Shown here piece by piece: positions 124 through 18,873 of a stretch of 64,000 nt of DNA. Location of the stretch: contig JBAYIT010000001.1 in the NCBI GenBank assembly GCA_041665485.1, positions 73,884 to 137,883 on the forward strand, written 5' to 3'. The position numbers and the translations under genes were made by a program. Under the pieces are notes generated by a model. The model made no database searches. It was given only the letters and a program-made list of their open reading frames with translations, and had not been told where the DNA came from. Each line of letters opens with the position of its first letter. Within the stretch, counting starts at the first letter, position 1. This stretch comes from Candidatus Shapirobacteria bacterium. GTDB lineage: Bacteria > Patescibacteriota > Microgenomatia > UBA12405.

Positions 124-315
124 ATGCCAAAAACATATAAACCCGGTGAAATATCACCAAAATCATCCCAAGCAGAAATTATTGGTCCGCGAGGTGGGCG
201 TAGCGGAGTCGAAAGGACAGTCACAAAAGGCGAACCATTCCCTCCCGGAAGAAAGTCAGGAGAAACTTATCTGATAGTCGACCCGACTAAACATGGGCAA
301 AGGAGGGATAAATAA
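124..315 (+). CDS. small conserved hypothetical protein (63 aa)
   Basis: ORF directly upstream of, and abutting, the MBL gene. Pro/Gly-rich motif 'GPRGGRSGVERTVTKGEPFPPG...DPTKH'. No recognisable RBS was checked. Confidence 0.35.
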   Translation: MPKTYKPGEISPKSSQAEIIGPRGGRSGVERTVTKGEPFPPGRKSGETYLIVDPTKHGQRRDK

Positions 316-316
316 T

Positions 317-1372
317 ATGGCATTTGAAATTGATTATATCCCGGTGGGAAACGGAGAAAGCAGCGGTGATGCAATCGCACTTCGATATGGAAATCTTTCC
401 GGGCCAAGGGAAGAACAGACAATCGTCGTAATTGATGGAGGTTATAAAGAGTCAGGAGAAGCTCTTGTCCAACATATTAACAAGTATTACGGCACCAATT
501 TGGTAAATATGGCCATTTCAACACACCCAGACGCAGACCATGCGTCTGGCTTAGCTGTGGTTCTGGAAAAGTGTAAAGTTAACCAGTTGCTGATGCATAA
601 GCCATGGAATCATGCTCAGGACATCAAAAACATGTTTTTCGACGGAAGGATAACAGCATCTGGGCCAGAGGAAAGGTTGGAAAAGTCACTTCAGGACGCA
701 AGTGACTTGGAAAAATTGGCAAATAAAAACGGTATAGAAATATTGGAGCCATTCCAAGGTGTTGGAACAAGCGATGGCAGTATGAGGATATTAGGTCCAT
801 CCTTAGAACTATACGAATCACTTCTGTTATCTTTTAAACCATGCCCTGAATCGAAAGGATTGGATATAGCCTCACTCTTTAAGCAGGTAGCGTTAAAAGT
901 CGACGAATGGGTAGAAGATAACTTGGGGATCGATCTGTTGGATGATGATAATGACCAAACCTCCGCCGAAAACAACACGAGTACGATTGTCTTATTTACG
1001 ATTGAAGGACATAAATTACTATTTACCGGTGATGCCGGAAAAACTGGATTGCATTATGCCATTTCTTACGCTGAATCTCTAGGGATTCCATTAACTGACC
1101 TCAACTTTTTGGATGTTCCTCACCATGGGAGTAAGAATAACTTAAACAGTAAGATTTTGTTGAAAATAAGGGCACAAACAGCTTTTATTTCGGCTTCACC
1201 AAATGATCCAAAACATCCATCTAAAAAAGTGACAAATGCGTTGAAGAAACTTCGGCACGCGGTCTACGTTAATAGAAGCGGCATAATCTGCCACAACTTT
1301 AACTCACCCGTTCGAGAAGGGTGGGTTCCGGTGACTGAAGAACCGTTTCACGATAAATTCAAAGATGATTAA
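317..1372 (+). CDS. metallo-beta-lactamase-fold hydrolase
   Basis: HxHxDH-type motif 'STHPDADHASG' and later 'DVPHHGS'. Start ATG at 317 is preceded by AAGGAGGG, a Shine-Dalgarno sequence. The ORF track begins 24 nt upstream. Confidence 0.7.
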   Translation: MAFEIDYIPVGNGESSGDAIALRYGNLSGPREEQTIVVIDGGYKESGEALVQHINKYYGTNLVNMAISTHPDADHASGLAVVLEKCKVNQLLMHKPWNHAQDIKNMFFDGRITASGPEERLEKSLQDASDLEKLANKNGIEILEPFQGVGTSDGSMRILGPSLELYESLLLSFKPCPESKGLDIASLFKQVALKVDEWVEDNLGIDLLDDDNDQTSAENNTSTIVLFTIEGHKLLFTGDAGKTGLHYAISYAESLGIPLTDLNFLDVPHHGSKNNLNSKILLKIRAQTAFISASPNDPKHPSKKVTNALKKLRHAVYVNRSGIICHNFNSPVREGWVPVTEEPFHDKFKDD

Positions 1373-1395
1373 AAATTTGTTAGAATTAGCCTAAC

Positions 1396-2142
1396 ATGTC
1401 AGAAGATTTGAATAGTTTAAAACTAACAATTTTTGAGTTAATCAGCTATGTGTTCCCCGGCCTGTTGGTAATAATACTTGGGTTAGTATTTTTTCCGCCA
1501 GGGTTATCTATACTTAAAGACAACGTAATCTTGGTCTCATTCTTTTCCTACATAATCGGTAATTTGCTCCATCAACTAAGTGAGTCGAACCTTAATTTGA
1601 GACAGTATGGGTGGAAAATTTATCATTGGCTTAAAGAAAAAGATGAAAAAGGTCATGGAATTGAAAATCCGACAGGTCGGATAGGAAGATTAATGAAATG
1701 GTTTAGACATAAATGGTTGGAGAAAAAGAAGGACCCGATTAAAGATCTGTTGAATGTCACGGGGATCCTTAAAGAAAAGTGCAATGTAGACGAAGTCACC
1801 CCTTATGATCTGTATTTTTTAAAGGAGGCGTATCTGATAAACCAACCATCACTGGCTGGCTATTATCAATACCTTCTTTACCAAAAAATTTTTAATAAGT
1901 CATTGTCGTTGATATTTTTCTTAACCGCCGTTTTACTGATAATTTTGGATTACTTCAAAACTATTAGTGTCAATATTTATCCCGGATTATCATATTCAAT
2001 TGACGGTAAGGGATTGATCATTTCAGCAGGACTTATCTTGCTTTCCTTAGTCTTTAAAGACCGTTCTCGCTTTTTCAAAGATTATCGGGACAAAATATTG
2101 GATATGAATGTTTTAATGACTTTTGGAATGAAAAAAGCATAA
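1396..2142 (+). CDS. hypothetical integral membrane protein
   Basis: Multiple hydrophobic segments (several predicted TM helices). No recognisable catalytic motif. Confidence 0.45.
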   Translation: MSEDLNSLKLTIFELISYVFPGLLVIILGLVFFPPGLSILKDNVILVSFFSYIIGNLLHQLSESNLNLRQYGWKIYHWLKEKDEKGHGIENPTGRIGRLMKWFRHKWLEKKKDPIKDLLNVTGILKEKCNVDEVTPYDLYFLKEAYLINQPSLAGYYQYLLYQKIFNKSLSLIFFLTAVLLIILDYFKTISVNIYPGLSYSIDGKGLIISAGLILLSLVFKDRSRFFKDYRDKILDMNVLMTFGMKKA

Positions 2143-2235: not shown

Positions 2236-3042
2236 TTAGTTTTCAAACACTCTCGATATCTCCCCGTAAACCTTAACCGACAGAGCCTCTTCCAAAAACT
2301 CGGAATCAAACTTTTTTACCTCGATCAACCGTCTTGCCTCATTTTTTGTCATCGATTTATTTTCGGTTAATCGATAATAGATAATTAGCCCTTCCACCAG
2401 TGAATTCTTGAGCTTTTGACTGCTATGCTGATATACGTACTGACGTAAAAATAAAGCCAAATCTTTAGTGTCAATCGGATCTGATAGCTTAATTAAATCA
2501 ATTAACACCGAGTTCGTTCTGGGAACGGGGTAGAATTTTTCTTTCCCCACTTCCATTAGCACTTTAACTTTAAAAAACGAACTAAAAACCCCATGTTCGT
2601 TGATAGTAGCCACCAGTTTCTTTGGTACCATTAGTACCACCCGGTCATAATTAATAAACGTCAAATGACCAAGCAATTGTTCGGCAAAAGAATATGGTAA
2701 ATTAGATACGATTTTGTTAAAGTCTTTCCCTTGTTTCCATCTTCCTCTTGGCAGAACGTGACCTCTGGCACTCTCAAAGTGGATTTCAACGTTGGTTGGC
2801 AAACCACTCAATATTGGCTCAAAATGCCTGTCTACCTCATAGGTAATAACCTTGCCCGCTTTAGTCGCCAACTCCCGGGTTAAATTACCAATTCCTGCTC
2901 CAATTTCCAATACCACATCATTCGAATTAATCTCTGCCATTTCAACTGTTTTCTTTATGATTTGGCTATCAGTCAGGAAAAACTGATCCAGCAAAGCATC
3001 GGGTGTAATTTTCCATTTACTTAATAACCTCTTTGCATCCAT
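2236..3042 (-). CDS. rRNA adenine N6-dimethyltransferase family (KsgA/Erm-like) paralog A
   Basis: SAM motif 'VLEIGAGIGNLT'. 'SNLPYSF' (NLPY-type motif IV). 'FYPVPRTNSVLIDL' (KsgA FxPxPKVDS-like). 'DQFFLTD' stands in place of the canonical GQNFL. Confidence 0.65.
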   Translation of the reverse strand: MDAKRLLSKWKITPDALLDQFFLTDSQIIKKTVEMAEINSNDVVLEIGAGIGNLTRELATKAGKVITYEVDRHFEPILSGLPTNVEIHFESARGHVLPRGRWKQGKDFNKIVSNLPYSFAEQLLGHLTFINYDRVVLMVPKKLVATINEHGVFSSFFKVKVLMEVGKEKFYPVPRTNSVLIDLIKLSDPIDTKDLALFLRQYVYQHSSQKLKNSLVEGLIIYYRLTENKSMTKNEARRLIEVKKFDSEFLEEALSVKVYGEISRVFEN

Positions 3043-3068
3043 ATCTAATTTTACTCTATTTTACCCTG

Positions 3069-3097
3069 TTTACAAAAGCCCTATAATAATATAAAAT
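3069..3097 (+). promoter_or_regulatory. sigma70-like promoter in divergent intergenic region
   Basis: TTTACA-17 nt-TAAAAT upstream of the 3121 start. The 78-bp intergenic region is shared with the divergently transcribed paralog. Confidence 0.35.
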
Positions 3098-3120
3098 AGA
3101 CCTATTGTTATAAACACCAT

Positions 3121-4224
3121 ATGTCTAGAACAAGAAGCCCTGAAACTCGCGAACTACCCCAAGAACCCCGTAGGACTAGACACGCCAGAATTGTTCCTAG
3201 TGTGGCCCTTGAACCTAGATTTTCGGAAGCAAATGGCGACGACGCCCCAATACTTTGGCAACCCGGCACCCCCATGGATGAAACTTTCTTAAGAGCGGCA
3301 GGAGTAATACCTAGTGAGGCAATTGGCCAAAATTTTCTCGTTGACCCTGAGCTTGTTGCCCTTGTCGCTTCCCAAATTATTCCTAACGCTCAAGTTGTAG
3401 AAATAGGCGCCGGCCCTGCCAATATGACCGCCGTTATTGCCCCAATCGTCCAAGAGGTTGTCGGTTTGGAAATCGATCCCGCCAGTTACCGACCTATTCA
3501 TGATGCCGTCTTGCCACAATTGGGTAATGCCCGCATCCTCTATCAAGACGCACTTAGTTTTAAATTTGAAAAATGGGTTGAATCACAGAGAGATGCCATT
3601 TATCAGGTGTTTGGCAATATTCCCTTTCACATTGCCGAGCCGCTTTTGGTTAAACTGGCTCGATTAGGGGATAGGGTTGACAGGATTACTTTGTTGGTGG
3701 GCGATAATTTTGCTCAAATTATGGCGATTCGGGATCCGCAAGATATTCGCTATGGCCGAATGTCTTTTGTGGCTAGCCTTTTCCAAGTCGATACTGTCGC
3801 CCAAATTCCTCGAGAGGGATTTTGGCCGGTTCCCCGCACCGATGCCACTCTTATTAACCTTACCCCCCTAGAACACGATTTAGACGGACGAGATTTGACT
3901 TTACAACTTCGTGGGCAAATTATAAATCAACCCGATCTAACGATAATTAAAGTATTAAATGGTTTTTCGCCCCGCCAAGCATCCGGCAAAATGTCGAAGG
4001 AACAAGCCCGTCGCCGTGACCGTCGACAAACTCGAGATGAACTTCGTGGTCTAACCCGACAACTTAAGCCCCAAGACGGTTATGCTTCAGGCGATAACCA
4101 ATCCCGTGTTGGTATTAGTCTTGTTACCCGTCTAGGCCTACCCCCAGAGATACTTAGCCAGCCCTTTAGTCGCTTAAATAATCAACAAGTCAGAATTCTA
4201 GCCCAAGCTATTGAAAAGTTGTAA
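3121..4224 (+). CDS. rsmA: 16S rRNA (adenine1518/1519) dimethyltransferase RsmA/KsgA-like, with N- and C-terminal extensions
   Basis: Canonical 'GQNFLVD', 'VVEIGAGPANMT', 'GNIPFHIAEP' and 'FWPVPRTDATLINL'. Noticeably more GC-rich than the flanking genes. Confidence 0.6.
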   Translation: MSRTRSPETRELPQEPRRTRHARIVPSVALEPRFSEANGDDAPILWQPGTPMDETFLRAAGVIPSEAIGQNFLVDPELVALVASQIIPNAQVVEIGAGPANMTAVIAPIVQEVVGLEIDPASYRPIHDAVLPQLGNARILYQDALSFKFEKWVESQRDAIYQVFGNIPFHIAEPLLVKLARLGDRVDRITLLVGDNFAQIMAIRDPQDIRYGRMSFVASLFQVDTVAQIPREGFWPVPRTDATLINLTPLEHDLDGRDLTLQLRGQIINQPDLTIIKVLNGFSPRQASGKMSKEQARRRDRRQTRDELRGLTRQLKPQDGYASGDNQSRVGISLVTRLGLPPEILSQPFSRLNNQQVRILAQAIEKL

Positions 4225-4237: not shown

Positions 4238-4882
4238 TCACTTAGTTTTTTTGGCTAGAATATAGTATCGACCTAAAGAATCCGGATATGATTTACGAGC
4301 TTTAATAATAGTAAAAAAACGCCCGATGATATGATCAACATCTTCGTTAGTAATACCAAATATTTGATCAAGCCTGTCTGGAATTTTCTCACTTTTTTTA
4401 GTTAGCGGGCAAGATAATAGGGTATTTGGTGGTCGAATGAACATTTCCAAAATAATATGTCCATCATTTTTTAATAGTCTATTAAATTCTTGATAGATCT
4501 TAGGCCAAAGGCGGGGACGGCATGAGGAAGTCATCGTTAAATCCATAATCAGATCAAAAGTGTTGCCGGGAATCGGTAAACCTTTGACAATATCTGCCTT
4601 AAATATGGTTGAATTCCTGTTCTGATTTTTAGCATATTTGACAGCCACGCTTGATATGTCGACGCCAGTAGTGTTGGTGAATCCGAGTTTTTCCAGCTTA
4701 ACCAATAACCGCCCTCGTCCACAACCGACATCCAGTATGGATGAATTCTTCTTCAAGACACCTTTTGATAATAGAGTTTTGACAAAACCAACAATATCTT
4801 CGGAAATTGGATAACATGACCAAGATGGTATGTCGTACGAGTAACGATATATTTTATTAAACCGTTTTTGATAGTCCAGCAT
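4238..4882 (-). CDS. class I SAM-dependent methyltransferase
   Basis: Motif I 'ILDVGCGRGRLL'. Overlaps the upstream aminotransferase gene by 26 nt (same-strand operon). Confidence 0.6.
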   Translation of the reverse strand: MLDYQKRFNKIYRYSYDIPSWSCYPISEDIVGFVKTLLSKGVLKKNSSILDVGCGRGRLLVKLEKLGFTNTTGVDISSVAVKYAKNQNRNSTIFKADIVKGLPIPGNTFDLIMDLTMTSSCRPRLWPKIYQEFNRLLKNDGHIILEMFIRPPNTLLSCPLTKKSEKIPDRLDQIFGITNEDVDHIIGRFFTIIKARKSYPDSLGRYYILAKKTK

Positions 4883-5987
4883 GTTTTAGCAGGATCTCTT
4901 TTAGGATTAAAACCCTTTCGACCTCGAGGAAATCTGTAGCATAGAGCTGGATGATGTTTTTTTGGATGATGCTCTCGGCATTAGCAAACTCCTCTTTTAC
5001 TTTAATATGATAAAAATCGGTTAGGATCTTATTTTTACTTAAAACAGTTTCATAGTTATGTTTTTGAGCATGGAAACCACTATTAATCAAATCTTCAATC
5101 AGATCCTTGGTATTTATATCCACCGACAACTCAATCACCGGCATATGAAAAACTCTATCTGCCTCCGGGTATGCAAGCTGAAAACTTATTTGATCAGTCG
5201 TCGACGACACCTCCCGCTGGAAGTTTAAAATATTAGTCTTTATCGTCAAACGTCGATTTTTGTTATTTTTCAAATCATGTAAGGCTAGCAATAAGGCAAA
5301 TAGGTGTGGTCTAAACTTAATGCCAACATTATTAGGAATATGTTTATAGTGGTTGGTTATTAAATCACTTGGGACTCTATTAGAGTGAGAAAAAAGCAAC
5401 GCCCTGTCGCGAAATACCGGATTATCGGTAGTTAATGCGCCAAGTTCACCTCCGCTAATCAGTTTACCTAAACCAAACGAAACACAATTAATGTCAAAAA
5501 ACTCTCCTATGGGTTTACCTCTCCACCGCGATTCATGGGCATGTGACGAATCAGAAATTATAAAGATTTTATGTTTTTTCTGTAATTGAGAAATTTTATT
5601 CAAATTGGTCAAGTTTCCCCAAGGCTGTAGAACCATTATCGCCAGAGTATTGTCATTGACAAGTTTGTCACACTTATCGACATCTAAAGCATAAGTTGCC
5701 GGATCAACATCACAAAAGACTGGTTTTAATCCAAAGGCGCAAATAACACTAATACTGACATGAAATCCGTAAGTTGGAATAATCACTTCCTTTTTATCAC
5801 TTTCCAGAGAAAGACAAAAAAGGGCTAGATACAGCGCCGAAGTGCCATTACATGTCGAAACACCAAACTTGTTGCCAAATAGTTTAGCCGCCTCGTTTTC
5901 AAACTCCTCCATGTAACCACCCTTAACTGTCGATAGCCAATTATCTTTAATACAGCGATCTATCTGTTCGAGATAGCTACTTGTCAT
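4857..5987 (-). CDS. DegT/DnrJ/EryC1/StrS-family PLP-dependent sugar aminotransferase
   Basis: N-terminal 'FGVSTCNGTSALYLAL' motif typical of DegT-family aminotransferases. Size about 376 aa. Confidence 0.7.
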   Translation of the reverse strand: MTSSYLEQIDRCIKDNWLSTVKGGYMEEFENEAAKLFGNKFGVSTCNGTSALYLALFCLSLESDKKEVIIPTYGFHVSISVICAFGLKPVFCDVDPATYALDVDKCDKLVNDNTLAIMVLQPWGNLTNLNKISQLQKKHKIFIISDSSHAHESRWRGKPIGEFFDINCVSFGLGKLISGGELGALTTDNPVFRDRALLFSHSNRVPSDLITNHYKHIPNNVGIKFRPHLFALLLALHDLKNNKNRRLTIKTNILNFQREVSSTTDQISFQLAYPEADRVFHMPVIELSVDINTKDLIEDLINSGFHAQKHNYETVLSKNKILTDFYHIKVKEEFANAESIIQKNIIQLYATDFLEVERVLILKEILLKHAGLSKTV

Positions 5988-5991
5988 GTTT

Positions 5992-7020
5992 TTATCGGTA
6001 ACATTGATATAATTTTAAAACTACCGTCAATGTTTTAAGCGCATCTTCTGGCTCCATAAACAATGACTTCGATTTTCCACAAACGACATTGAAAAAGTCT
6101 CCCATCTGCTCACGATGTTTAGTTCCATAGTAACTTACTGGTGGCGGTTCCGTAAATTTATCCGCATATGATTCCAATAACTCGCCCAACGTTTTAGCTA
6201 CTTCCGGATCCTCGTGGATAAGATGGATTACTTTAACGGGATAATCGGCCGAGAAAGTAATGGTTCCTTTGGTGCCAATTACTTCAATTTTTGAATCCCA
6301 GATATCGATAGAGGTGTTGGTTGTCGACAATATTGCCAAGCTCTCATCGGCAAATTTCATAATTGAAGCAAAAGTATCTTCTGTTTCAATAATCCCTTTA
6401 AATTTTAAATTAGAGCCAAAGGCTCCGACATCAACCGGCAAGCCTTTGATCCAAAGCAATAAATCTAAGGTATGGATAGCTTGGTTAATTAGAGTAGAAC
6501 CGCCCTCTTTGTCCAGTTTCCCTTTCCAGTAACTATTGGTGTAATACTCTTTATTTTTTTGGCTGTTTAGAGTTGCATTTACCATGGTGATGGCGCCGAA
6601 GGTGCCGGAATCAATCGCCTTTTTAATTTCCATGATTACCCGGTTGTACCGGTGCTGTGAAATCACCGTCAAAACATTGTGGTGCATTTTGGCCGTGGCA
6701 ATCATTCTTTCCGCATCTTGAACACTTAAGGCCATTGGCTTCTCAACAATAACATTTTTACCCGATTCCAACGCCCTGATTGCTAAATCAGCATGGCTTT
6801 TATGATCTGTACAGATCGAAACGGAATCAATTGAGCTATTAGCCAAGACTTCTTCAAATGAATTTGCTACCGATGCTATTTTGTGAGTGTCAGCAAATTT
6901 TTTGGCTTTTTCAATATCAAGATCGCAACAAGCGGCAATGGTTATGTTGTTGTGGATACATCCGTCAACATGGCTTGGAGCAATATGTCCGCAACCGATA
7001 ATGGCGTGCTTAATGTTCAT
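5992..7020 (-). CDS. Gfo/Idh/MocA-family NAD(P)-dependent oxidoreductase
   Basis: N-terminal Rossmann 'IGCGHIA' motif and typical family length. It pairs with the DegT aminotransferase in the manner of WbpB/WbpE-type sugar 3-oxidation and transamination. Confidence 0.7.
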   Translation of the reverse strand: MNIKHAIIGCGHIAPSHVDGCIHNNITIAACCDLDIEKAKKFADTHKIASVANSFEEVLANSSIDSVSICTDHKSHADLAIRALESGKNVIVEKPMALSVQDAERMIATAKMHHNVLTVISQHRYNRVIMEIKKAIDSGTFGAITMVNATLNSQKNKEYYTNSYWKGKLDKEGGSTLINQAIHTLDLLLWIKGLPVDVGAFGSNLKFKGIIETEDTFASIMKFADESLAILSTTNTSIDIWDSKIEVIGTKGTITFSADYPVKVIHLIHEDPEVAKTLGELLESYADKFTEPPPVSYYGTKHREQMGDFFNVVCGKSKSLFMEPEDALKTLTVVLKLYQCYR

Positions 7021-7028
7021 TTTTTTGT

Positions 7029-7943
7029 TTATAAATTAGTATTAGAATTAACTTCGTTAATTAAAATTTGAGCCCAAACGTCAGTTTTGTTTTGAGCCAG
7101 GTGAAGTATTTTTACCCCCGCCAAACTCTCTCTGATCTCTTGCGGACTGGGATTTGTTTTCTTCATTATTTCTTCAAGTGCATGTCCCGGCATAAAATTC
7201 CACGCCAGTGGTAATTCTCTTACTGTCAACTCGTTCTCCAATTGGTCGATGGCTAGCCATAAACAAAGTTGGTCATTGGGGATAAAACTATTTTTGTTTT
7301 TTCCGGTTAACATTTGTAAATAGAATTTTTTCCACAATCCAGCTAGGATGCGGATACCATCAGAAGAGCCGTAGATTATTCCTCCGTTCCAACATCTAAT
7401 ATTTAGTAACCTTTCCGCTGAGTAGTTGGTTTCAAAAGTGTTATTAACCAAATCAGCCATTTGTTGAGCCGATAATTGTGAACTGTCTTTAAAATACAGC
7501 CAACTAATGTCTGTTATGGATAATCTTCCCGGTCGACGTAATAATAAATAAACTACCGGTTTGTTGCTGTCACCAACTTCTAATTCTGTCGTTATCTTGT
7601 CCACATCTTCTAGGGCTAGAATATCGCTGTCGATGTACATTAGAGAATTAAAATTCTCGTCACTCATCGACTCTAATTTTGCGATTCTGGTGAGTGAGTG
7701 TTCGAGCTCACTGGTCGCACCAAGTGATTCTTTTAAATCTTGAGGCACTTTCACTTTCTTTATCTGGCAATATTGATCTCCCTGATCGGTTATATTTTTT
7801 ATATTACTACAGCTATAAACGTGGATAGGTAAATGGCTGTTAAGTTTTCTTATACTTCGAATGGCTGTTTTAAGGTAGGTTGTATATTTCTCGTCACTTG
7901 CCATCACTAGGCCAAAGGGTTGTTTTACTTTTTTGGGAATCAT
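7029..7943 (-). CDS. nucleotide-diphospho-sugar transferase, GT8-like glycosyltransferase (tentative)
   Basis: N-terminal 'VMASDEKYTTYL', DxD-like 'YIDSDILALEDV' and 'WNGGIIYGS' resemble the glycogenin/LPS galactosyltransferase family 8 layout. Confidence 0.45.
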   Translation of the reverse strand: MIPKKVKQPFGLVMASDEKYTTYLKTAIRSIRKLNSHLPIHVYSCSNIKNITDQGDQYCQIKKVKVPQDLKESLGATSELEHSLTRIAKLESMSDENFNSLMYIDSDILALEDVDKITTELEVGDSNKPVVYLLLRRPGRLSITDISWLYFKDSSQLSAQQMADLVNNTFETNYSAERLLNIRCWNGGIIYGSSDGIRILAGLWKKFYLQMLTGKNKNSFIPNDQLCLWLAIDQLENELTVRELPLAWNFMPGHALEEIMKKTNPSPQEIRESLAGVKILHLAQNKTDVWAQILINEVNSNTNL

Positions 7944-7976
7944 GAATATGTTTTATGAATAATTAATAATTTACCT

Positions 7977-8696
7977 TTAATTATCTTTTGTTGTTTCAAT
8001 AAAATTAGCTTCAAGCAGAAACTGCATCACTTTAATGGCAGTTTCCGAATATTTACCGTTGTTGTCAATGATGACATAGGAGCCATTTGGTAACAACCGA
8101 CTTTGTCGAAGAATTTCATCCTGGATTGCAAGCAGTTTGTCGTTCGAATATCGCTTTCTTAAAGTTTGATTATCACCAAAAAGTTTCTTTTCATTTGAAT
8201 TGAGTTTTGTCTCGTTGACCGTTAGTATGATTAGCTTACTATTTTTCTTTAGATATGGAGCAATAATTGTTGGGTTAAGCTGGACTCCCTCAAAAAGAAC
8301 GTTTTGAGCGCCTTGAACTTCTAGTTTGGGAATAATACTATCTAACAAAGAACACACCCCTTCAGAATAACGGTTATAACCCTTGATTAGATTATTTTTG
8401 GAATACAGACCATCTCCAATTAGTTTATAACTATCACAAGATCCAAGGAAAACATAAGGGTTTCTCATCTCTTTAACTTTTAGGTTTTCTATTTCTTGAG
8501 ACACGAGGCGCAGGACGTCCATCGACTGGAGGACACAACTTTCAATAGAACCCGATATTAGTGGGGCAATTGTTGACTTTCCTGATAGGGGAACCCCGGT
8601 CATAAAAAGAGCCGTATTGGGTAAGGTAAATTTATACTTTGGCTTAAGTATCGTAAAATGTGTTTTTATTGTATTATTCTTCATCTTTCCAAACAT
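7977..8696 (-). CDS. P-loop NTPase / putative kinase
   Basis: Walker A 'GVPLSGKST'. No further family assignment is possible by eye. Confidence 0.5.
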   Translation of the reverse strand: MFGKMKNNTIKTHFTILKPKYKFTLPNTALFMTGVPLSGKSTIAPLISGSIESCVLQSMDVLRLVSQEIENLKVKEMRNPYVFLGSCDSYKLIGDGLYSKNNLIKGYNRYSEGVCSLLDSIIPKLEVQGAQNVLFEGVQLNPTIIAPYLKKNSKLIILTVNETKLNSNEKKLFGDNQTLRKRYSNDKLLAIQDEILRQSRLLPNGSYVIIDNNGKYSETAIKVMQFLLEANFIETTKDN

Positions 8697-9969
8697 CCTT
8701 CTCTCTTTTGAGCTTTAATAAATGAACCAGTCTGTCTTTTGATTTTTTCTGCAGACCATTGTCGTTTGGTCTATTTAGGTTTTCAAGAACAATCTCGGCG
8801 ACGGTTTGAGTTTCGGTTTCGGTGTAGCCCCTCGCGGTTATCCAAGATGTTCCCAGCCTGATGCCGCTGGCCACATAAGGCTTTAATGTTTCGCCCGGCA
8901 CTACCTGTCTGTTGGTCAAAATTCCAATATTTTCCAAGTTAGTTTCCGCCTCTTTTCCGGTCAGATTAAAAGTCTTTAGGGTATTTAAAACCATTAAATG
9001 AGTGTCACTTCCGCCCGTAACCATAAGTTCGGGGTATTGTCCAAACACCTTTTCAAAAACTTTAATATTCGTTATCACCCTGGAAACATAGTCCTTAAAC
9101 CAAGGCTTACCAGAATCTATCAAGCATTGGGCTATTTCATAAATACGCCTTAATGGCACGCTTGATTGAACGCCGGGATGGACAGCTCTGTCAATATCCT
9201 CTTTCAGAGATTCTTTGCACAAAATAATGCCGCCATGTGGCCCCAACATGGTTTTATCAAGAGTTAACGTGACCACATCACAATAAGGAAATGGCTTTGG
9301 AAATTTTTCACCCACGATCAAACCGGCAGGGTGCGATAAATCAGCCATTAAATAAGCTCCAACCCGCCTTGAGATATCCGCCAATTTGCCAAAGTCTATT
9401 GTTCTTGGATATGAAGACGCTCCGCAGACAATTAGTTTAGGTTTAAATTCTTTTGCTTGCTTCCTGATGGCGTCATAATCTATCCACCCGTCATTTCCAA
9501 CTCCATAAAAATCAAAATTAAAGAATCTTCCTGAGAAGTTTTTCTTCATTCCATGGGTTAAATGTCCTCCGGCTTCAAACTTCATCGCCAAAACCCTGTC
9601 TCCGTTCTCCAGTAGCCCTTGATACACAGCCTGATTTGCCTGGCTAACCGAATGTGGCTGCACATTGGCATGTTCTGCCCCAAATAATTCACAAGCCACC
9701 TCGGTGGCTATTCTTTCAATCCGGTTAAATCCTTCAGCTCCGGCATAAGGTCTGTGTTCAAGAAGACCTTCGGCAATACTGGCATGCCTAAGGGGAATGT
9801 CGATATATTTTCGAAGAGTCGGGCTGGCCGGAGCAATCAGATTTGTCGTTATTAGGTCATACTGATCCTGCATCTTAGCCGCTAAAACCAACTCCTTTTC
9901 TTTTTCCTGATAATATTTTTTATTATTTTTCACTCTTGGATTAAGCCTAAGATTCTGACTTATAAGCAA
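8674..9969 (-). CDS. glyA: serine hydroxymethyltransferase
   Basis: Strong collinear similarity to SHMT: 'NVQPHSVSQAN', 'GGHLTHG', 'ADLSHPAGLI', PLP-lysine region 'TLDKTMLGPHGG' and 'GSDTHLMVLN'. The N-terminal 'ENY' region is diverged. Confidence 0.85.
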   Translation of the reverse strand: MLISQNLRLNPRVKNNKKYYQEKEKELVLAAKMQDQYDLITTNLIAPASPTLRKYIDIPLRHASIAEGLLEHRPYAGAEGFNRIERIATEVACELFGAEHANVQPHSVSQANQAVYQGLLENGDRVLAMKFEAGGHLTHGMKKNFSGRFFNFDFYGVGNDGWIDYDAIRKQAKEFKPKLIVCGASSYPRTIDFGKLADISRRVGAYLMADLSHPAGLIVGEKFPKPFPYCDVVTLTLDKTMLGPHGGIILCKESLKEDIDRAVHPGVQSSVPLRRIYEIAQCLIDSGKPWFKDYVSRVITNIKVFEKVFGQYPELMVTGGSDTHLMVLNTLKTFNLTGKEAETNLENIGILTNRQVVPGETLKPYVASGIRLGTSWITARGYTETETQTVAEIVLENLNRPNDNGLQKKSKDRLVHLLKLKREKDVWKDEE

Positions 9970-10642
9970 TCGGGTCTTTCATCAGATTCAGCTCAAAGGC
10001 TTCAATTCTGGCCTTACAGTTACTACAATGGCCGCAAGCAACCTCTGTTCCGTTATGGCAGGACCAGGTAAATTCAAACGGAACCTTCATGTTGTTACCC
10101 AATTTTATTGCCCCGGTTTTATCCGTTTCGGTCAGTGGGTGAAAAATCTTAATGTCTTTCTTCAACATCGTTCCCTTTTCAACTACTTTTTGGTAAGCAT
10201 CAATAAATTCAGGACTATTGTCTGGGCATATGTGGTCGCCTCCGGTTGACCCAACTACAATTATGTCCGCACCTTGGACCTCCGCCAAAGCCGTAGCTAC
10301 CCCAAGGAATATCGAATTTCGAAAAGGAACATATTCCAATCGAAAGTTTCTCTCATCAAGCGGTATATTTTTATCCAGCAATGCCGAACCGCCAAAATTT
10401 TTGATCCAAGGAAGATCTACTTTGTAAACTTGTTTAACTTTCCAATGTTTGACTAATTGATCCAAGCACCACTCTTCTTTTTCTGCTGTTTTTTGTCCAT
10501 ATCTAAGAAATAAAAAAATCGGCTGATAACCCTGCTCGATGGCCATCGCCGTCGCCACTGTGCTGTCTAAACCACCACTAATTAAACAAACTGCCTTTTT
10601 TTGTTCAGTTGTCATTATGTCCTCCTTTTTGGACCAAACCAT
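9947..10642 (-). CDS. queC: 7-cyano-7-deazaguanine synthase
   Basis: PP-loop 'LISGGLDST' and C-terminal zinc motif 'CGHCSNCKAR'. Confidence 0.85.
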   Translation of the reverse strand: MVWSKKEDIMTTEQKKAVCLISGGLDSTVATAMAIEQGYQPIFLFLRYGQKTAEKEEWCLDQLVKHWKVKQVYKVDLPWIKNFGGSALLDKNIPLDERNFRLEYVPFRNSIFLGVATALAEVQGADIIVVGSTGGDHICPDNSPEFIDAYQKVVEKGTMLKKDIKIFHPLTETDKTGAIKLGNNMKVPFEFTWSCHNGTEVACGHCSNCKARIEAFELNLMKDPIAYKSES

Positions 10643-11430
10643 ATTAATTGATTTCTCTCAATAATTCTCCACCCTCGGCTATTTGTGTCTTTTTGAACCA
10701 ACGTCTGATGTTCGGTCACTGCCTCTTTAGTTAATCCTTCCGGCATTATTAAGACCCTTTTGGGGTTTAAGTTACAACTTTCAACTATTTCTTCGATTTC
10801 CTTCAGATCTTCAACTCGGCTGACGACAAATTTAAACCATCCAACTGGCCACCCATTAATCAGACTTAAAACCTCGGGCCTAAATCTCAATTTTTTCTCA
10901 TTACCACTGTTGGCTAATTTGGGTGAACAGTTTATTTGACATTGAATCAATTCTGGACTCGGTTTGATCGTGCCATTGGTTTCAATTTCCACTTGCCAAT
11001 CTTTCATTTGGTTTAACAACTTAACAATCAAGTCTTGTTGTAACAAGGGTTCACCGCCGGTTATGACCACCCTTTTTTGGATATTTTTATCCAGCCCAAA
11101 TTTATCCACCCAAGCTTTTTCAATTTCTATTTTTGTTTTTTCTATACTCCAATCTTCTGGTTCCTGCCAGTATTCCGCTCTTTTGGTGTCCCACGTATAT
11201 CCTGTGTCACACCTCCATCCGTTTGGAAAACCACAATGAAGGTTACAAAACTGTAATCTTAAAAACACTGCCGGGCAACCAGCGGTACCTCCTTCAGATT
11301 CCAGTAGACCTTCTCCCTGAAGGGTAGCAAACACTTTATCTCCCGACACTTTAAAAAAATCGAGCTTCCGAGCTGACTTTAACAAGTCACCCTTAGTGGG
11401 TTTATAAACAACGCTAGATTGTTTTTTCAT
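10615..11430 (-). CDS. queE: 7-carboxy-7-deazaguanine synthase (radical SAM)
   Basis: QueE-type cluster motif 'CNLHCGFPNGWRCDTGYTWD' and 'ITGGEPLL'. Confidence 0.8.
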   Translation of the reverse strand: MKKQSSVVYKPTKGDLLKSARKLDFFKVSGDKVFATLQGEGLLESEGGTAGCPAVFLRLQFCNLHCGFPNGWRCDTGYTWDTKRAEYWQEPEDWSIEKTKIEIEKAWVDKFGLDKNIQKRVVITGGEPLLQQDLIVKLLNQMKDWQVEIETNGTIKPSPELIQCQINCSPKLANSGNEKKLRFRPEVLSLINGWPVGWFKFVVSRVEDLKEIEEIVESCNLNPKRVLIMPEGLTKEAVTEHQTLVQKDTNSRGWRIIERNQLIWFGPKRRT

Positions 11431-11550
11431 TTGCAGGTTTTATTGGCTCACCTTCGTGAGGTCCTGCTACCGCTGTAGGTTTTAATGGTCCGCCCATTAA
11501 GAGCGGGACACCTACCACCGTAGTTGGGAGAATCTTAGCTAATTGCAATA
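11431..11550 (-). promoter_or_regulatory. promoter (TTGACA-17-TAAGAT) plus roughly 95-nt structured leader of the queE operon
   Basis: Read on the minus strand: 'TTGACAAAGATATTGCAATTAGCTAAGAT', then leader hairpins CUACGGUGGUAG, CCGCUC-UUAAU-GGGCGG, CUACAGCGGUAG and CUCAC-GAAG-GUGAG before the ATG. Confidence 0.5.
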
Positions 11551-11603
11551 TCTTTGTCAAGATACATGTTTTTTACGAACAGAGAGATGATCGCCCTATG
11601 TTT

Positions 11604-11801
11604 TTATGAGATAATCCAGCGATCTAACAATGTATTTGGTGAAACTCCAGCCTTTCTGGCATTAATTGTTGTCTGATTTATTGCTCGACCGTTTGGTGTT
11701 TGAGGTGTGCCCTTTCGATAAATTTTATCTATTGTTTCTCGGCTCATTCTTTTTAAAAATATTTCGGGATTGTCTTGAAAACCGAGGGAAGTGGAGAACA
11801 A
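11604..11801 (-). pseudogene. ORF fragment / gene remnant downstream of the disrupted helicase
   Basis: A 65-aa ORF with an HTH-like tail 'ARKAGVSPNTLLDRW'. Neighbouring frames contain only short broken ORFs. Confidence 0.25.
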
Positions 11802-11919
11802 AAATTTTGTTTCTGGGGAAAAATCATAAAACGATTTTAAAACTGCCTTTTGTCTGTCTTTTGGGAGTGTAAAAAAGTGCTGATCAACTTGGAAAATGGC
11901 GTGATCATTTCATATTTTA

Positions 11920-14097: not shown

Positions 14098-14278
14098 AAA
14101 TCTCTAGTATTTTACCTCTTAAAGAGCAATAATCCAACAATCTCCCTACAGATTGGCAGTTTCGTGCTTCTATATATCAAACAGTATCACTGTTTTAAGA
14201 CACTCCTTTTTTATGGTGTCTCATTTGTCTCGTTTAGCTTCAAAACTTTAATAGAATGAGACAGTGGGGAAGAGGGTG

Positions 14279-14326
14279 TTATAAGGACAGAAAGGTTCCA
14301 GACCCTAATGCTCCGCCAGATGAATA
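14279..14326 (+). repeat. copy 1 of the conserved intergenic motif of about 45 nt
   Basis: See the copy at 27010-27055. Confidence 0.55.
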
Positions 14327-18060: not shown

Positions 18061-18873
18061 ATGGACATAAAAACAATATTGGATAAATATGGGATTAAGC
18101 CGGATCCGCAGAAGGACCAGTTCTTTTTGACTGATGAGGAAATAATTGAAAAGACGGTGAAGGTGGCTGATATTAATGAAGATGACACAGTGCTAGAAAT
18201 TGGTGCAGGACTGGGAAACTTAACGACCGAATTGGCAAAAAAGGCTAAAAGAGTAATAAGTTTTGAAATTGACAGAGCGTTTGAGCCAATATTGAGCCAA
18301 CTACCCAAAAACGTAGAAACACATTTCGAAAATGCCTGGGAATATGTGCAACTTCATGGTAAATGGAGGAAAACTAAAGAATACAACAAGGTGGTGGCTA
18401 ATATCCCCTATTCTTTTGCCGAACAATTGTTACATAATTTCACCTTTTTGATGTATGACAAAATAGTTTTGTTGGTGCCAAAAAAATTTTTGGGGAGTGT
18501 TAAAAGACATGGTATTTTTAGCTCGTTTTTTGAACCAAAACTGATACTGGAGGTGGATAGAACAAAATTTTTCCCGGTGCCACGAACCGATTCGGTTTTG
18601 ATTGATTTGGTTAAATTGCCCGACCCTTTGAAAAACAGGGATTTGGCCTTATTTTTAAGGCAGTATGTATATCAACACGAAGATCAAAAAGTTAGAAATT
18701 CATTAATGGAGGGAATAATTACTTACAAATGGTTAGCGTTGGAAGAAACAATGACGAAAAACGAGGCGAGAAAAATGGTTAAAGATAGTGGAATTGATTT
18801 AAATTTATTAGAAACTCAACCCGGTGATAAAATTTATGAAGAAATTAGTAGGGTTAAGTGGATGGTAGACTAA
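18061..18873 (+). CDS. rRNA adenine dimethyltransferase family (KsgA/Erm-like) paralog B
   Basis: Roughly 60% identical by eye to the protein at 2236-3042. Shares 'DQFFLTDEEII', 'VLEIGAGLGNLT', 'ANIPYSFAEQLL' and 'FFPVPRTDSVLIDL'. Confidence 0.65.
   Translation: MDIKTILDKYGIKPDPQKDQFFLTDEEIIEKTVKVADINEDDTVLEIGAGLGNLTTELAKKAKRVISFEIDRAFEPILSQLPKNVETHFENAWEYVQLHGKWRKTKEYNKVVANIPYSFAEQLLHNFTFLMYDKIVLLVPKKFLGSVKRHGIFSSFFEPKLILEVDRTKFFPVPRTDSVLIDLVKLPDPLKNRDLALFLRQYVYQHEDQKVRNSLMEGIITYKWLALEETMTKNEARKMVKDSGIDLNLLETQPGDKIYEEISRVKWMVD

What the first reader, a model, noticed from the sequence alone, without database searches (positions are those of the whole stretch)
2236..4224. Three KsgA/Erm-family rRNA adenine dimethyltransferase paralogs, two of them divergently arranged
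The protein at 3121-4224 has canonical RsmA/KsgA motifs (GQNFLVD, NIPF). It is markedly GC-richer than its surroundings and carries N- and C-terminal extensions. Two further paralogs at 2236-3042 and 18061-18873 are about 60% identical to each other. They share non-canonical DQFFLTD and a conserved PVPRTxSVLIDL motif. A small genome carrying three members suggests either extra rRNA/tRNA m6A modifications or Erm-like resistance functions. The GC-rich copy may be horizontally acquired.
Basis: partly seen in the sequence, partly recalled or inferred. Interest (0 to 1): 0.5.

Follow-up and report, generated by a model that had tools for sequence, protein, structure and literature searches.

The report
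Three divergent KsgA-like methyltransferase paralogs
A tiny candidate-phyla-radiation bacterium carries three intact relatives of the universal ribosomal RNA methylase KsgA; they belong to a lineage-specific branch that has lost KsgA's usual ribosome-contact residues, and one of them is normally the last gene of a conserved 7-deazaguanine (preQ0) operon, so what they methylate is an open question.

Summary
ORFs A (2236-3042, -), B (3121-4224, +) and C (18061-18873, +) are intact PF00398 methyltransferases. A and C are 58% identical; B is about 30% identical to either. None reaches the curated RsmA or Erm cut-offs, and none groups with Erm. B's GC excess comes from amino-acid composition: GC3 and codon usage are ordinary, and B is syntenic with Shapirobacteria orthologs, so it is not a recent import. 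A is the relocated copy. All three fall in a Patescibacteria-specific clade marked by a P-x-P-R-T motif. That clade lacks most canonical 30S-contact residues and split long ago into a short and a long lineage that co-occur in the same genomes. B is a long-lineage member. In 36 of 39 distinct loci this lineage sits beside preQ0 synthesis or transport genes, often as the last gene of a co-directional array. A and C belong to a large 'DQFFL' branch that shares a C-domain motif with the short lineage and lies in variable regions. Targets are unproven. My best guess is that B performs the 16S helix-45 dimethylation and A and C methylate another RNA adenine.

The parts
2236..3042 (-). Gene A, 268 aa: KsgA-like methyltransferase of the 'DQFFL' (A/C) branch of the short lineage. 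It is the extra, more divergent copy.
   Evidence: PF00398 92 bits. 58% identical to C. 92% ortholog P0084 sits in an unrelated context between alaS and ftsK. Deviates at 4 of 60 family-conserved positions, yet shows 45 synonymous against 23 nonsynonymous codon differences from its ortholog.
3043..3120 (.). 78-bp AT-rich intergenic region shared by A and B, with back-to-back promoter-like hexamer pairs.
   Evidence: on the + strand, TTTACC-16-TATAAT (3060-3087) and TTTACA-17-TAAAAT (3069-3097), both 10/12. On the - strand, 3114->3086 and 3075->3048, both 9/12. These are consensus matches only.
3121..4224 (+). Gene B, 367 aa from ATG 3121 (340 aa if GTG 3202): long-lineage KsgA-like methyltransferase. 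It has a disordered N-terminal extension and a basic insertion in the C-domain (residues 288-316, window 3982-4068).
   Evidence: PF00398 101 bits. Orthologs at 41-50% identity in Shapirobacteria. Synteny. AF2 core pLDDT above 90, with residues 1-40 and 287-331 at low confidence. Top fold matches are bacterial KsgA.
18061..18873 (+). Gene C, 270 aa: KsgA-like methyltransferase of the 'DQFFL' (A/C) branch. It conforms to the family consensus more closely than A.
   Evidence: PF00398 98 bits. 878 related clusters in Woesebacteria, Levyibacteria, Shapirobacteria and unclassified Patescibacteria. Deviates at 1 of 60 conserved positions. AF2 pLDDT 96, closest folds are archaeal Dim1/KsgA. Lies between tRNA-Ser and ClpB, an interval where relatives carry other genes.
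4238..11430 (-). Neighbouring minus-strand array that corresponds to the conserved cluster found next to long-lineage genes elsewhere: QueE-like radical SAM (10615-11430), QueC (9947-10642), SHMT (8674-9969), P-loop kinase-like 'unk239' (7977-8696), GT8 (7029-7943), GFO/IDH/MocA (5992-7020), DegT (4857-5987), class I methyltransferase (4238-4882).
   Evidence: Pfam and NCBIfam. The same genes in the same order occur in L040 and L048, and the wider cluster in 36 of 39 distinct long-form loci.

Best explanation
The window comes from a Candidatus Shapirobacteria genome (Patescibacteria/CPR). It encodes three functional SAM-dependent RNA adenine-N6 methyltransferases with the two-domain KsgA/Dim1 fold. 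Shown here: all three keep the SAM-binding GxGxG motif, the acidic residue after strand 2, and the catalytic N-(L/I)-P-(Y/F) loop. They belong to a Patescibacteria-specific clade marked by F-x-P-x-P-R-T-(D/E/N)-(S/A). This clade has replaced most residues that canonical KsgA uses to grip 16S helices 24, 27 and 45. It split long ago into a short lineage (about 250-300 aa) and a long lineage (about 320-360 aa, with a basic insertion in the C-domain), and the two co-occur in the same genomes. B is the long-lineage member: vertically inherited, syntenic, and in most relatives the terminal gene of an operon-like array of preQ0 synthesis or uptake, sugar-modification and polyamine-type genes. A and C belong to the large, highly conserved 'DQFFL' branch, which shares a C-domain motif with the short lineage. 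C is the member closer to the family consensus. A is an extra, faster-evolving but selectively maintained copy placed back-to-back with B. Inferred: each enzyme flips an adenine in a structured RNA into the active site and mono- or dimethylates N6. The two lineages have different targets. B most likely performs the universal 16S helix-45 m6,2A1518/A1519 modification, with its basic insertion compensating for the lost C-domain contacts. A and C would then methylate another adenine in rRNA or another RNA. My estimates: family and lineage placement about 0.9; B carrying the KsgA function about 0.4; A/C carrying it about 0.25; none of the three (a canonical RsmA elsewhere in the genome) about 0.2.
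For: Family and fold: PF00398 92-101 bits. AF2 models at pLDDT 96 (C) and 79 (B, core above 90), matching KsgA/Dim1/TFB1M, with N-domains superposing on truncated B. subtilis KsgA (6ifv) at 2.3-3.6 A. Motifs intact. Separate clade: all Patescibacteria types are monophyletic at 76% bootstrap, A/C at 100%, B-type at 100%. The PRT motif appears in about 125 of the top 150 representatives of an exhaustive profile search, against PKVDS in canonical RsmA. Ancient short/long split and co-occurrence: pairs in the window, L023/L052, L029, L040, L048 and L069. Long against long is 35-54% identical, short against short 33-51%, and short against long from the same genome only 26-38%. A and C share KNSL(R/M)EG(L/I)I.Y..TKNEAR with the short forms. 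B is vertical: synteny with L001-4, L019, L020 and normal GC3 and codon usage. B is the more KsgA-like of the types: it keeps GQNFL, the YGR(L/M)S loop with the Arg159 equivalent, and the terminal 'LS..E...LA' helix. It scores higher against bacterial KsgA (E. coli 66 bits against 24 for A; local RsmA profile 111 against 76-78). Operon link: 36 of 39 distinct long-form loci carry FolE, QueD, QueE, QueC or Vut_1, and the gap to the upstream co-directional gene is -53 to +60 nt in 14 loci. A is functional: 45 synonymous against 23 nonsynonymous codon differences from its ortholog.
Against: No target is demonstrated, and there is no rRNA gene in the window. All three are below the curated RsmA cut-off (106-113 bits against 171). 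B has lost Gln141, Arg147, Lys155, Arg221-Lys223 and Arg248 equivalents, so it is no better than A/C at the canonical contacts (K/R fraction 0.12 against 0.25). The A/C family is much larger among close homologs (878 clusters against about 21 for B-type) and more conserved in sequence, which fits a housekeeping role for A/C. Deep branches of the tree are saturated, only neighbour-joining was used, and the A/C-to-short link rests on a motif rather than on the tree (AC+short recovered in 1% of bootstraps). Only 64 kb of a roughly 411-kb contig was seen, so a canonical RsmA elsewhere is not excluded.
Confidence: 0.5

Rival explanations
1. The A/C ('DQFFL') family is the housekeeping 16S helix-45 dimethyltransferase of Microgenomates, so C is the KsgA of this genome and A is a spare copy. 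B and the long lineage have a different job tied to the preQ0 operon they sit in.
For: The A/C family is very large and widespread (878 clusters at E<=1e-3, in Woesebacteria, Levyibacteria, Shapirobacteria and unclassified Patescibacteria) and strongly conserved (typical mean identity 63%). IMG annotates members as the 16S dimethyltransferase. C's model is closest to archaeal Dim1/KsgA. The NLPY catalytic loop is canonical, whereas B has NIPF. B is operon-linked to non-ribosomal genes.
Against: A/C proteins lack the 11-residue loop that carries Lys155 and Arg159, which hold G1516 and helix 45, and they replace the invariant Gln141 with Pro. They score worst on the RsmA models (106-111 bits; E. 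coli KsgA only 24 bits). Their genomic positions are variable and surrounded by accessory genes, and neither A nor C is syntenic with relatives. In E. coli, rsmA (ksgA) likewise lies next to unrelated metabolic genes such as pdxA and apaG, so B's operon context does not argue against a KsgA role.
Confidence: 0.25
2. A and C are accessory, horizontally mobile resistance or immunity methyltransferases. Like Erm, they would methylate an rRNA adenine at a drug- or toxin-binding site to protect the ribosome, and they are gained and lost with variable islands.
For: Contexts are variable, among NUDIX, HIT, GNAT, GrpB, AbiEii-like and 'aminoglycoside resistance' genes, and some family members are fused to NUDIX or GrpB. 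A recurs at 91% nucleotide identity as a single-gene segment in an unrelated context. A lies next to a candidate defence gene (PDC-M48B, 281 bits). C lies in a tRNA-flanked interval that differs between relatives. Identity is flat at 55-64% whatever the source taxon. Like A/C, Erm proteins are shortened in the same loop region.
Against: The Erm model scores 78-86 bits against a cut-off of 212 and is always below the RsmA model. A and C do not group with Erm(A/B/C). The fold is closer to Dim1/KsgA, with ErmC' at rank 21. There is no room for a leader peptide or attenuator upstream (78 bp shared with B; 9 bp before C). Codon usage is fully native (z=-1.1 and -1.2). So large and conserved a family across a whole class looks more like a core gene.
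Confidence: 0.12
3. B and the cluster-associated short forms are functionally part of the preQ0-sugar-carbamoyl pathway. One option is ribosome self-protection against a 7-deazapurine nucleoside made by the operon. The other is modification of an RNA or small molecule that carries the 7-deazaguanine derivative.
For: 36 of 39 distinct long-form loci carry preQ0 synthesis or transport genes, although the proteins have a median identity of only 35%. Arrays are co-directional with gaps of -53 to +60 nt. Short and long forms bracket the cluster in L029, L069 and L094. FolE-QueD-QueE is replaced by the Vut_1 precursor transporter while downstream genes are kept. No TGT or QueA is present to put the base into tRNA. 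SHMT-like, aminotransferase, glycosyltransferase and carbamoyltransferase genes recall nucleoside-antibiotic clusters (my own knowledge, not tested).
Against: Conservation of the array across a very broad lineage fits primary metabolism or RNA modification better than a secondary metabolite. The SHMT passes the ordinary GlyA-type cut-off (369 bits against 335). rsmA (ksgA) lies next to unrelated metabolic genes in E. coli too. A TGT could be encoded elsewhere. In the window B is inverted relative to the array, and FolE, QueD, carbamoyltransferase and GT2 are absent. No literature supports such a product.
Confidence: 0.1
4. One or more copies are decaying, redundant duplicates without function.
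For: A deviates at 4 of 60 family-conserved positions against a family median of 0. B's relatives vary at SAM-contact positions (QNAL for QDAL, EIxP for EID).
Against: All three ORFs are full length with intact SAM and catalytic motifs. A shows purifying selection against its ortholog (45 synonymous, 23 nonsynonymous). The models are confident. Promoter-like sites lie upstream.
Confidence: 0.03

Closest known systems
Bacterial RsmA/KsgA (16S rRNA A1518/A1519 N6-dimethyltransferase; TIGR00755; E. coli b0051; PDB 1QYR, 7O5H, 6IFS)
   Same: Same two-domain fold, SAM motif I, acidic strand-2 residue and N-(L/I)-P-(Y/F) catalytic loop. It is the best-scoring curated model for all three proteins. 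B also keeps GQNFL, the YGR(L/M)S loop and the terminal C-domain helix motif.
   Different: Scores are 106-113 bits against a cut-off of 171. The proteins form a separate clade (76% bootstrap). PRT replaces PKVDS. Gln141 and Arg147, invariant in canonical enzymes, are replaced. Only 12-27% of the eight basic 30S-contact positions are K/R, against 79%. B has a basic insertion of about 45 residues. A and C have an 11-residue loop deletion and a 6-7-residue insertion before motif IV. There are three copies instead of one.
Archaeal KsgA/Dim1 (M. jannaschii 3GRR; P. horikoshii DIMT1 8X3W)
   Same: These are the best sequence and fold matches for A and C (84 and 77 bits; Foldseek ranks 1-12). The start of the C-domain is similar (FQHR.K / YQHE.Q.vKNSL).
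   Different: No phylogenetic affinity (A/C plus archaea recovered in 0.5% of bootstraps). The archaeal enzymes keep Gln141, Arg147, the Lys155/Arg159 loop and the basic C-domain patch that A and C lack.
Erm 23S rRNA A2058 methyltransferases (NF000499; ErmC' 1QAM, ErmB, ErmA, ErmE)
   Same: Same superfamily and fold. Like A and C, Erm proteins are shortened in the KsgA 'YGRLSV' loop region. NIPF, as in B, also occurs in an actinobacterial Erm (P0038).
   Different: The Erm model scores 78-86 bits against a cut-off of 212. Erm(A/B/C) form their own 100%-supported clade outside the Patescibacteria group. No leader-peptide region is present. The fold ranks below KsgA/Dim1.
Mitochondrial TFB1M / eukaryotic Dim1 (PDB 6AAX, 4GC9, 1ZQ9)
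   Same: These are KsgA-family members with added segments, a precedent for family members that gain extensions and for paralog pairs with divergent roles (TFB1M and TFB2M). They appear among B's fold matches.
   Different: No specific sequence affinity. B's insertion is a low-confidence, Arg/Lys-rich segment with no counterpart in those structures.

Membership tests
RrnaAD superfamily (Pfam PF00398: KsgA/Dim1/Erm) | Score above the Pfam gathering cut-off over most of the domain | tested here: met
   A 92.3, B 101, C 97.8 bits against a cut-off of 24.
RrnaAD superfamily (Pfam PF00398: KsgA/Dim1/Erm) | Two-domain fold: Rossmann-like N-domain plus helical C-domain | tested here: met
   AF2 models for C (pLDDT 96) and B (core above 90). 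Top Foldseek hits are all KsgA/Dim1/TFB1M, E 1e-18 to 1e-21. A was not modelled, but it is 58% identical to C.
RrnaAD superfamily (Pfam PF00398: KsgA/Dim1/Erm) | SAM motif I (E-x-G-x-G-x-G), acidic residue after strand 2, catalytic N-(L/I)-P-(Y/F) | tested here: met
   A: VLEIGAGIGNLT, YEVD, NLPY. B: VVEIGAGPANMT, LEID, NIPF. C: VLEIGAGLGNLT, FEID, NIPY.
RsmA/KsgA equivalog (TIGR00755) | Score at or above the curated equivalog cut-off (171 bits) | tested here: not met
   A 110.7, B 113.5, C 105.7. Bona fide RsmA controls score 232-281.
RsmA/KsgA equivalog (TIGR00755) | Phylogenetic placement among bona fide bacterial RsmA | tested here: not met
   All Patescibacteria types form a separate clade (76% bootstrap). 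The tree is neighbour-joining and its deep branches are saturated.
RsmA/KsgA equivalog (TIGR00755) | Conservation of residues that contact 16S h24, h27 and h45 in the KsgA-30S structure (Gln141, Arg147, Lys155, Arg159, Arg221, Arg222, Lys223, Arg226, Arg248; PMC8216452) | tested here: not met
   K/R at the eight basic sites: canonical 0.79, archaeal 0.88, B-type 0.12, A/C 0.25. Gln141 becomes Gly or Pro. Only the Arg159 equivalent is kept, in B. C-domain alignment is less certain.
RsmA/KsgA equivalog (TIGR00755) | Dimethylation of A1518 and A1519 of 16S rRNA | not testable with these tools
   Needs biochemistry or complementation. There is no rRNA gene in the window.
Erm 23S rRNA methyltransferase (NF000499 and allele models) | Score at or above the curated cut-off (212 bits) | tested here: not met
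   A 77.9, B 80.6, C 86.3. The Erm control P0038 scores 228.
Erm 23S rRNA methyltransferase (NF000499 and allele models) | Clade with known Erm proteins | tested here: not met
   Erm(A/B/C) are monophyletic at 100% and lie outside the Patescibacteria clade.
Erm 23S rRNA methyltransferase (NF000499 and allele models) | Regulatory leader peptide or attenuator upstream (common, not universal) | tested here: not met
   Only 78 bp, shared by A and B, and 9 bp between the upstream ORF and C. pT48 ermC shows ermCL for comparison.
Erm 23S rRNA methyltransferase (NF000499 and allele models) | Methylation of 23S A2058 and macrolide-lincosamide-streptogramin B resistance | not testable with these tools
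   Needs experiment.
Patescibacteria 'PRT-motif' KsgA-like clade, long lineage (defined here) | F-x-P-x-P-R-T motif, LLVGD in place of MLQKEV, basic insertion in the C-domain, about 320-360 aa, next to preQ0-cluster genes | tested here: met
   B has FWPVPRTDA, LLVGDN, insertion at residues 288-316, 340-367 aa, and QueC, QueE, SHMT and unk239 nearby.
Patescibacteria 'PRT-motif' clade, short lineage / DQFFL branch (defined here) | PRT motif, no C-domain insertion, KNSL.EG.I.Y..TKNEAR motif. For the branch: invariant DQFFL and the loop deletion | tested here: met
   A and C carry all of these. The tree does not itself join A/C to the other short forms (1% bootstrap), so the assignment to the short lineage rests on the motif and on size.

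The most novel reading that the evidence does not exclude
Patescibacteria may have no canonical KsgA at all. Instead they would carry an ancient pair of re-engineered KsgA-like enzymes that work together with a conserved preQ0 (7-deazaguanine)-sugar-carbamoyl operon. The long enzyme (B here) and its short partner would methylate the ribosome, or another RNA, in a way coupled to a so far undescribed 7-deazaguanine-derived product. Possible couplings are self-protection against a 7-deazapurine nucleoside or maturation of an RNA that carries the modified base.
Probability: 0.15. Interest if true: 0.85.

Novelty: new variant of a known kind. Interest (0 to 1): 0.55.

Why it matters
KsgA/Dim1 is among the few RNA-modification enzymes regarded as universal, and it also acts as a checkpoint in small-subunit assembly. 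A whole bacterial radiation appears to have replaced most of its ribosome-contact residues and split it into two co-occurring lineages. It has also wired one lineage into a conserved 7-deazaguanine operon. If so, either ribosome recognition by KsgA is far more plastic than the solved structures suggest, or these ultra-small symbionts carry additional, unknown m6A or m6,2A sites. It would also mean that 'rsmA' and '16S dimethyltransferase' labels on such proteins in CPR genomes are unreliable. The operon link gives a concrete experimental entry point (heterologous expression of the array with or without the methyltransferases) into CPR RNA-modification biology, which is almost unexplored.

Tried and rejected
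(1) Recent horizontal transfer of B. Rejected: GC3 and length-corrected codon bias are ordinary, the GC excess is due to amino-acid composition, and synteny with Shapirobacteria is conserved.
(2) Erm identity for any copy. Rejected on model scores, tree and fold ranking.
(3) Archaeal origin of A and C, suggested by the best PDB hits. Rejected: A/C plus archaea was recovered in 0.5% of bootstraps.
(4) A and C as a recent in-genome duplication. Not supported: they are sisters in only 15-35% of bootstraps, and C has closer relatives elsewhere at 63-64% identity.
(5) B's N-terminal extension as an ORF-calling artefact starting at Met52. Rejected: conservation with P0002 continues upstream of Met52.
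(6) Using KsgA-30S contact residues to decide which paralog is the true KsgA. Inconclusive: every Patescibacteria type has lost most of them.
(7) Organism names from cluster look-ups. Almost none were available.
(8) Literature on CPR KsgA paralogs or on a preQ0/carbamoyltransferase/KsgA cluster. Nothing relevant found.
(9) Replication-origin signals at the GC-skew switch. DnaA boxes are not enriched (27 found, 20 expected) and there are no notable repeats.
(10) A TGT or QueA in the cluster loci. None found with E. coli probes.
(11) Identity of 'unk239' by profile against the PDB. Only P-loop-level similarity.
(12) Whole-genome paralog counts for other Patescibacteria could not be obtained.
Full report
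OBSERVATION. The three ORFs are real: A = 2236-3042 (-), 268 aa; B = 3121-4224 (+), 367 aa; C = 18061-18873 (+), 270 aa. Each matches Pfam RrnaAD (PF00398) at 92-101 bits against a cut-off of 24. An hmmsearch of all window ORFs of at least 150 aa finds no fourth member. A and C are 58% identical, and B is 30% identical to C. Every quoted motif is present at the expected place. A and B are divergent across a 78-bp AT-rich spacer that holds back-to-back promoter-like hexamer pairs. Source names for identical proteins, and the synteny described below, identify the organism as a Candidatus Shapirobacteria bacterium (Patescibacteria/CPR, Microgenomates). The source contig is about 411 kb.

COMPOSITION AND THE HGT CLAIM. 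B is GC-richer than the window (47.4% against 40.2%, z=+1.9 among 71 ORFs). Its GC3 is 0.375, below the window mean of 0.394. The excess sits in codon positions 1 and 2 along the whole gene. The cause is amino-acid composition: Gly, Ala, Arg and Pro make up 0.32 of B, the highest of any window ORF, against 0.17 for A and C. Length-corrected synonymous codon bias is unremarkable for all three genes (A z=-1.07, B z=+0.65, C z=-1.18). B's orthologs in other Shapirobacteria (41-50% identity) lie in the same neighbourhood: an unknown P-loop gene, SHMT and QueC follow B both there and here. B is therefore vertically inherited.

The copy with signs of relocation is A. A contig from another sample (L005) shares only the gene itself with the window (window 2245-3054, 91% nucleotide identity). 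There it lies between alaS and ftsK. In other Shapirobacteria the position divergent to B is taken by a BpsA_C-like gene and an AdoMet decarboxylase, and both are absent from the window. C lies between tRNA-Ser and ClpB, an interval that holds different genes in Shapirobacteria UBA12405.

It is predicted with low confidence. The canonical last helix (ILSQPFSRLNNQQVRILAQAI) follows it at high confidence. The N-terminal 40 residues are predicted to be disordered. Conservation with P0002 (PI(L/V)W(Q/K)PG..M.E.FLR.AG) begins upstream of Met52, so at least part of the extension is translated.

FAMILY PLACEMENT. For all three proteins the best curated model is RsmA/KsgA (TIGR00755, 106-113 bits), but the cut-off is 171. 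The broad Erm model gives 78-86 bits against a cut-off of 212. Controls behave as expected: seven proteins from the homolog search score 232-281 bits on TIGR00755, and an actinobacterial Erm scores 228 on the Erm model. PDB sequence searches put archaeal KsgA/Dim1 first for A and bacterial KsgA first for B. AlphaFold models (C pLDDT 96; B 79 overall, core above 90) match KsgA/Dim1/TFB1M. No Erm structure appears in B's top 50, and ErmC' appears at rank 21 for C.

Reference sequences came from the E. coli genome, from plasmid erm genes and from PDB-verified archaeal sequences. Neighbour-joining trees with bootstrap gave two pictures.
- Sparse sampling: the A/C family is monophyletic (100%), but deep nodes are unresolved.
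- After adding intermediate sequences from the genome scan: all Patescibacteria types form one clade (76%), apart from bacterial plus archaeal KsgA and from Erm(A/B/C). A/C (100%) is sister to a group of B-type plus other 'B-like' proteins (80%).

A shared derived motif supports this clade: F-x-P-x-P-R-T-(D/E/N)-(S/A), where KsgA and Erm have P-x-P-K-V-D-S.

TWO ANCIENT LINEAGES. The B-like proteins come in two forms. The short form is about 250-320 aa. The long form is about 320-360 aa and carries the same basic C-domain insertion as B. An exhaustive HMMER search of 1.84 billion cluster representatives with a B-type/B-like profile returned about 75 long-form and about 50 short-form representatives (50% identity clusters) before canonical RsmA sequences appeared.

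Short and long genes co-occur on the same contig:
- in tandem in L023/L052, L040 and L048;
- 7-8 kb apart in L029 (Ca. Microgenomatus) and L069;
- divergently in the window, as A and B.

Long proteins from different contigs are 35-54% identical, and short proteins are 33-51% identical. Short and long from the same contig are only 26-38% identical. The duplication is therefore old, and the two lineages are presumably not redundant. A and C share with the short forms the C-domain motif KNSL(R/M)EG(L/I)I.Y...TKNEAR, which long forms lack. I therefore regard the A/C family as a derived branch of the short lineage. Its features are an invariant DQFFL, a 6-7-residue insertion before motif IV and an 11-residue deletion of the KsgA 'YGRLSV' loop. 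The tree itself does not show this link (1% bootstrap).

The A/C family is large: 878 clusters at 90% identity for C, with source names from Woesebacteria, Levyibacteria, Shapirobacteria and unclassified Patescibacteria. It is unusually conserved, with a typical mean identity of 63%. A is its most divergent member here. It shows 4 deviations at 60 positions that are at least 95% conserved, against a family median of 0, and these deviations are shared with its 92% ortholog. It is still under purifying selection, with 45 synonymous and 23 nonsynonymous codon differences.

THE OPERON LINK (not part of the original finding). Using window, L001 and L048 proteins as probes, I found a conserved block of about 10 kb next to the long-lineage gene. 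Its typical co-directional order is BpsA_C, AdoMetDC, FolE, QueD, QueE, QueC, NodU-like carbamoyltransferase, GT2, SHMT, a P-loop kinase-like protein ('unk239'), then the long RrnaAD as last gene (L063, L065, L079). Variants exist:
- the Vut_1 precursor transporter replaces FolE-QueD-QueE (L034, L042, and the Shapirobacteria loci);
- DegT/GFO/GT8 replace carbamoyltransferase/GT2 (L040, L048, and the window);
- a short RrnaAD stands at the start of the array or just before the long one (L029, L069, L040, L048, L094).

After removing near-duplicates, 36 of 39 long-form loci with at least 4 kb of flank carry at least one preQ0 synthesis or transport gene. The long proteins in those loci have a median pairwise identity of only 35%. 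In 14 loci the long gene starts within -53 to +60 nt of the preceding co-directional gene. None of the five A/C-type loci outside this neighbourhood has any of these genes. No TGT or QueA homolog occurs in any locus.

Read on the minus strand, the window runs QueE-like, QueC, SHMT, unk239, GT8, GFO, DegT, a class I methyltransferase, then B (inverted), then A. This is the L040 layout with B flipped and an A/C-type gene beside it. The window lacks FolE, QueD, carbamoyltransferase, GT2, Vut_1, BpsA_C and AdoMetDC. I found no description of this cluster, or of CPR KsgA paralogs, in the searchable literature.

WHICH ONE IS 'THE' KsgA? I took the E. coli KsgA residues that contact h24, h27 and h45 from the cryo-EM paper PMC8216452 and mapped them onto 155 aligned sequences. 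At eight basic contact positions the K/R fraction is as follows:

| Group | K/R fraction |
|---|---|
| Canonical RsmA | 0.79 |
| Archaeal Dim1 | 0.88 |
| B-type | 0.12 |
| Other long forms | 0.27 |
| Short forms | 0.25 |
| A/C | 0.25 |

Gln141 and Arg147 are invariant in bacteria and archaea. Gln141 becomes Gly in the B, long and short groups, or Pro in A/C. Arg147 is lost in the B, long and short groups and is mostly Lys in the A/C family, though A and C themselves carry Thr and Ser there. Only the Arg159 equivalent survives, as R/K in B-type and long forms. In A/C the whole loop carrying Lys155 and Arg159 is deleted. The entire clade must therefore bind its substrate differently from known KsgA/Dim1, and this test does not single out one paralog.

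On balance B looks more KsgA-like. It has GQNFL, the YGRMS loop, the terminal helix motif and better scores against bacterial KsgA. It has core-like synteny, and its new basic insertion could replace the lost C-domain contacts. The A/C family, on the other hand, has the breadth and conservation expected of a housekeeping enzyme. My estimates are: B performs the helix-45 dimethylation about 0.4; A/C does about 0.25; neither does, because a canonical RsmA lies elsewhere in the unseen 85% of the contig, about 0.2. The remaining probability goes to accessory-resistance and pathway-coupled roles.

MECHANISM. Shown: the fold, the SAM-binding and catalytic motifs, purifying selection, lineage structure and gene neighbourhoods. 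Inferred: each protein binds SAM, flips a target adenine of a structured RNA onto the aromatic residue of the N-(L/I)-P-(Y/F) loop and methylates N6 once or twice. The co-occurring lineages act on different adenines. The close A/B spacing with facing promoter-like sites suggests possible coordinated expression.

VERDICT. They belong to a Patescibacteria-specific, two-lineage radiation of the KsgA family whose long lineage is tied to a conserved 7-deazaguanine operon. That wider pattern, rather than the three copies as such, deserves follow-up.

Noticed in passing
window 4238-11430 (-); loci L001-L004, L009, L018-L109: A conserved array of about 10 kb lies next to the long KsgA-like gene in 36 of 39 distinct loci: BpsA_C, AdoMetDC, FolE, QueD, QueE, QueC (or the Vut_1 transporter), carbamoyltransferase, GT2 (or DegT/GFO/GT8), SHMT and a P-loop kinase-like protein. 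No TGT or QueA is present. Its product is unknown, and I found no description of it.
   Followed up: partly
window 7977-8696 (-): Conserved 239-aa protein with a Walker A motif (GxPLSGKST) and an invariant GSCDSY motif. It is often immediately upstream of the long methyltransferase (gaps of 8-51 nt). It shows only weak similarity to mevalonate-3-phosphate 5-kinase and 2-phosphoglycerate kinase, and it has no Pfam family.
   Followed up: partly
window 293-2142 (+): The metallo-beta-lactamase-fold protein (293-1372) matches the PADLOC candidate defence component PDC-M48B at 281 bits, and also LmuA-like and RT-associated MBL models. A 248-aa membrane protein without family follows it. The pair looks like a defence-type module directly beside gene A.
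   Followed up: partly
window 11920-14097 (-): Archaeo-eukaryotic primase (AEP-TOTE, 216 bits; PADLOC PrimPol 178 bits) fused to a ResIII/DEAD helicase. An 82-aa ORF at 11920-12168 looks like the missing helicase C-terminal piece, so the gene may be split or frameshifted.
   Followed up: no
window about 11400-14600: GC skew changes sign and gene orientation switches from minus to plus here. The ClpB/tRNA-Ser/DUF5673 block is inverted across this point relative to Shapirobacteria UBA12405. DnaA boxes are not enriched and no repeats stand out, so whether this is a replication origin or terminus is open.
   Followed up: partly
proteins P0067, P0122, P0124, P0171, P0181 (homologs of A and C): Some A/C-type proteins are fused to NUDIX, GrpB or a second methyltransferase domain (406-438 aa). 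A/C-type genes elsewhere sit among NUDIX, HIT, GNAT, histidine-phosphatase and AbiEii-like genes.
   Followed up: no
L018, L021-L023 (genome scan); P0071: Contigs carrying Shapirobacteria-type genes are deposited in MAGs labelled Candidatus Methanoperedens, uncultured Gammaproteobacteria or Methanofastidiosa. This is probably mis-binning. If it reflects physical association, it could hint at hosts.
   Followed up: no
window 2236-3042, 3121-4224, 18061-18873: All three proteins weakly match the methyltransferase region of PADLOC 'mad2' (MADS defence system) at 55, 27 and 60 bits. These scores are lower than their RrnaAD scores, and the match is probably generic domain similarity.
   Followed up: no
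window 15626-15698, 16963-17048, 23634-23707, 26078-26165: Four tRNA genes (Arg-GCG, Ser-CGA, Arg-CCG, Ser-GGA). The interval between tRNA-Ser-CGA and ClpB that contains gene C differs in content from the same interval in a related Shapirobacteria genome.
   Followed up: partly
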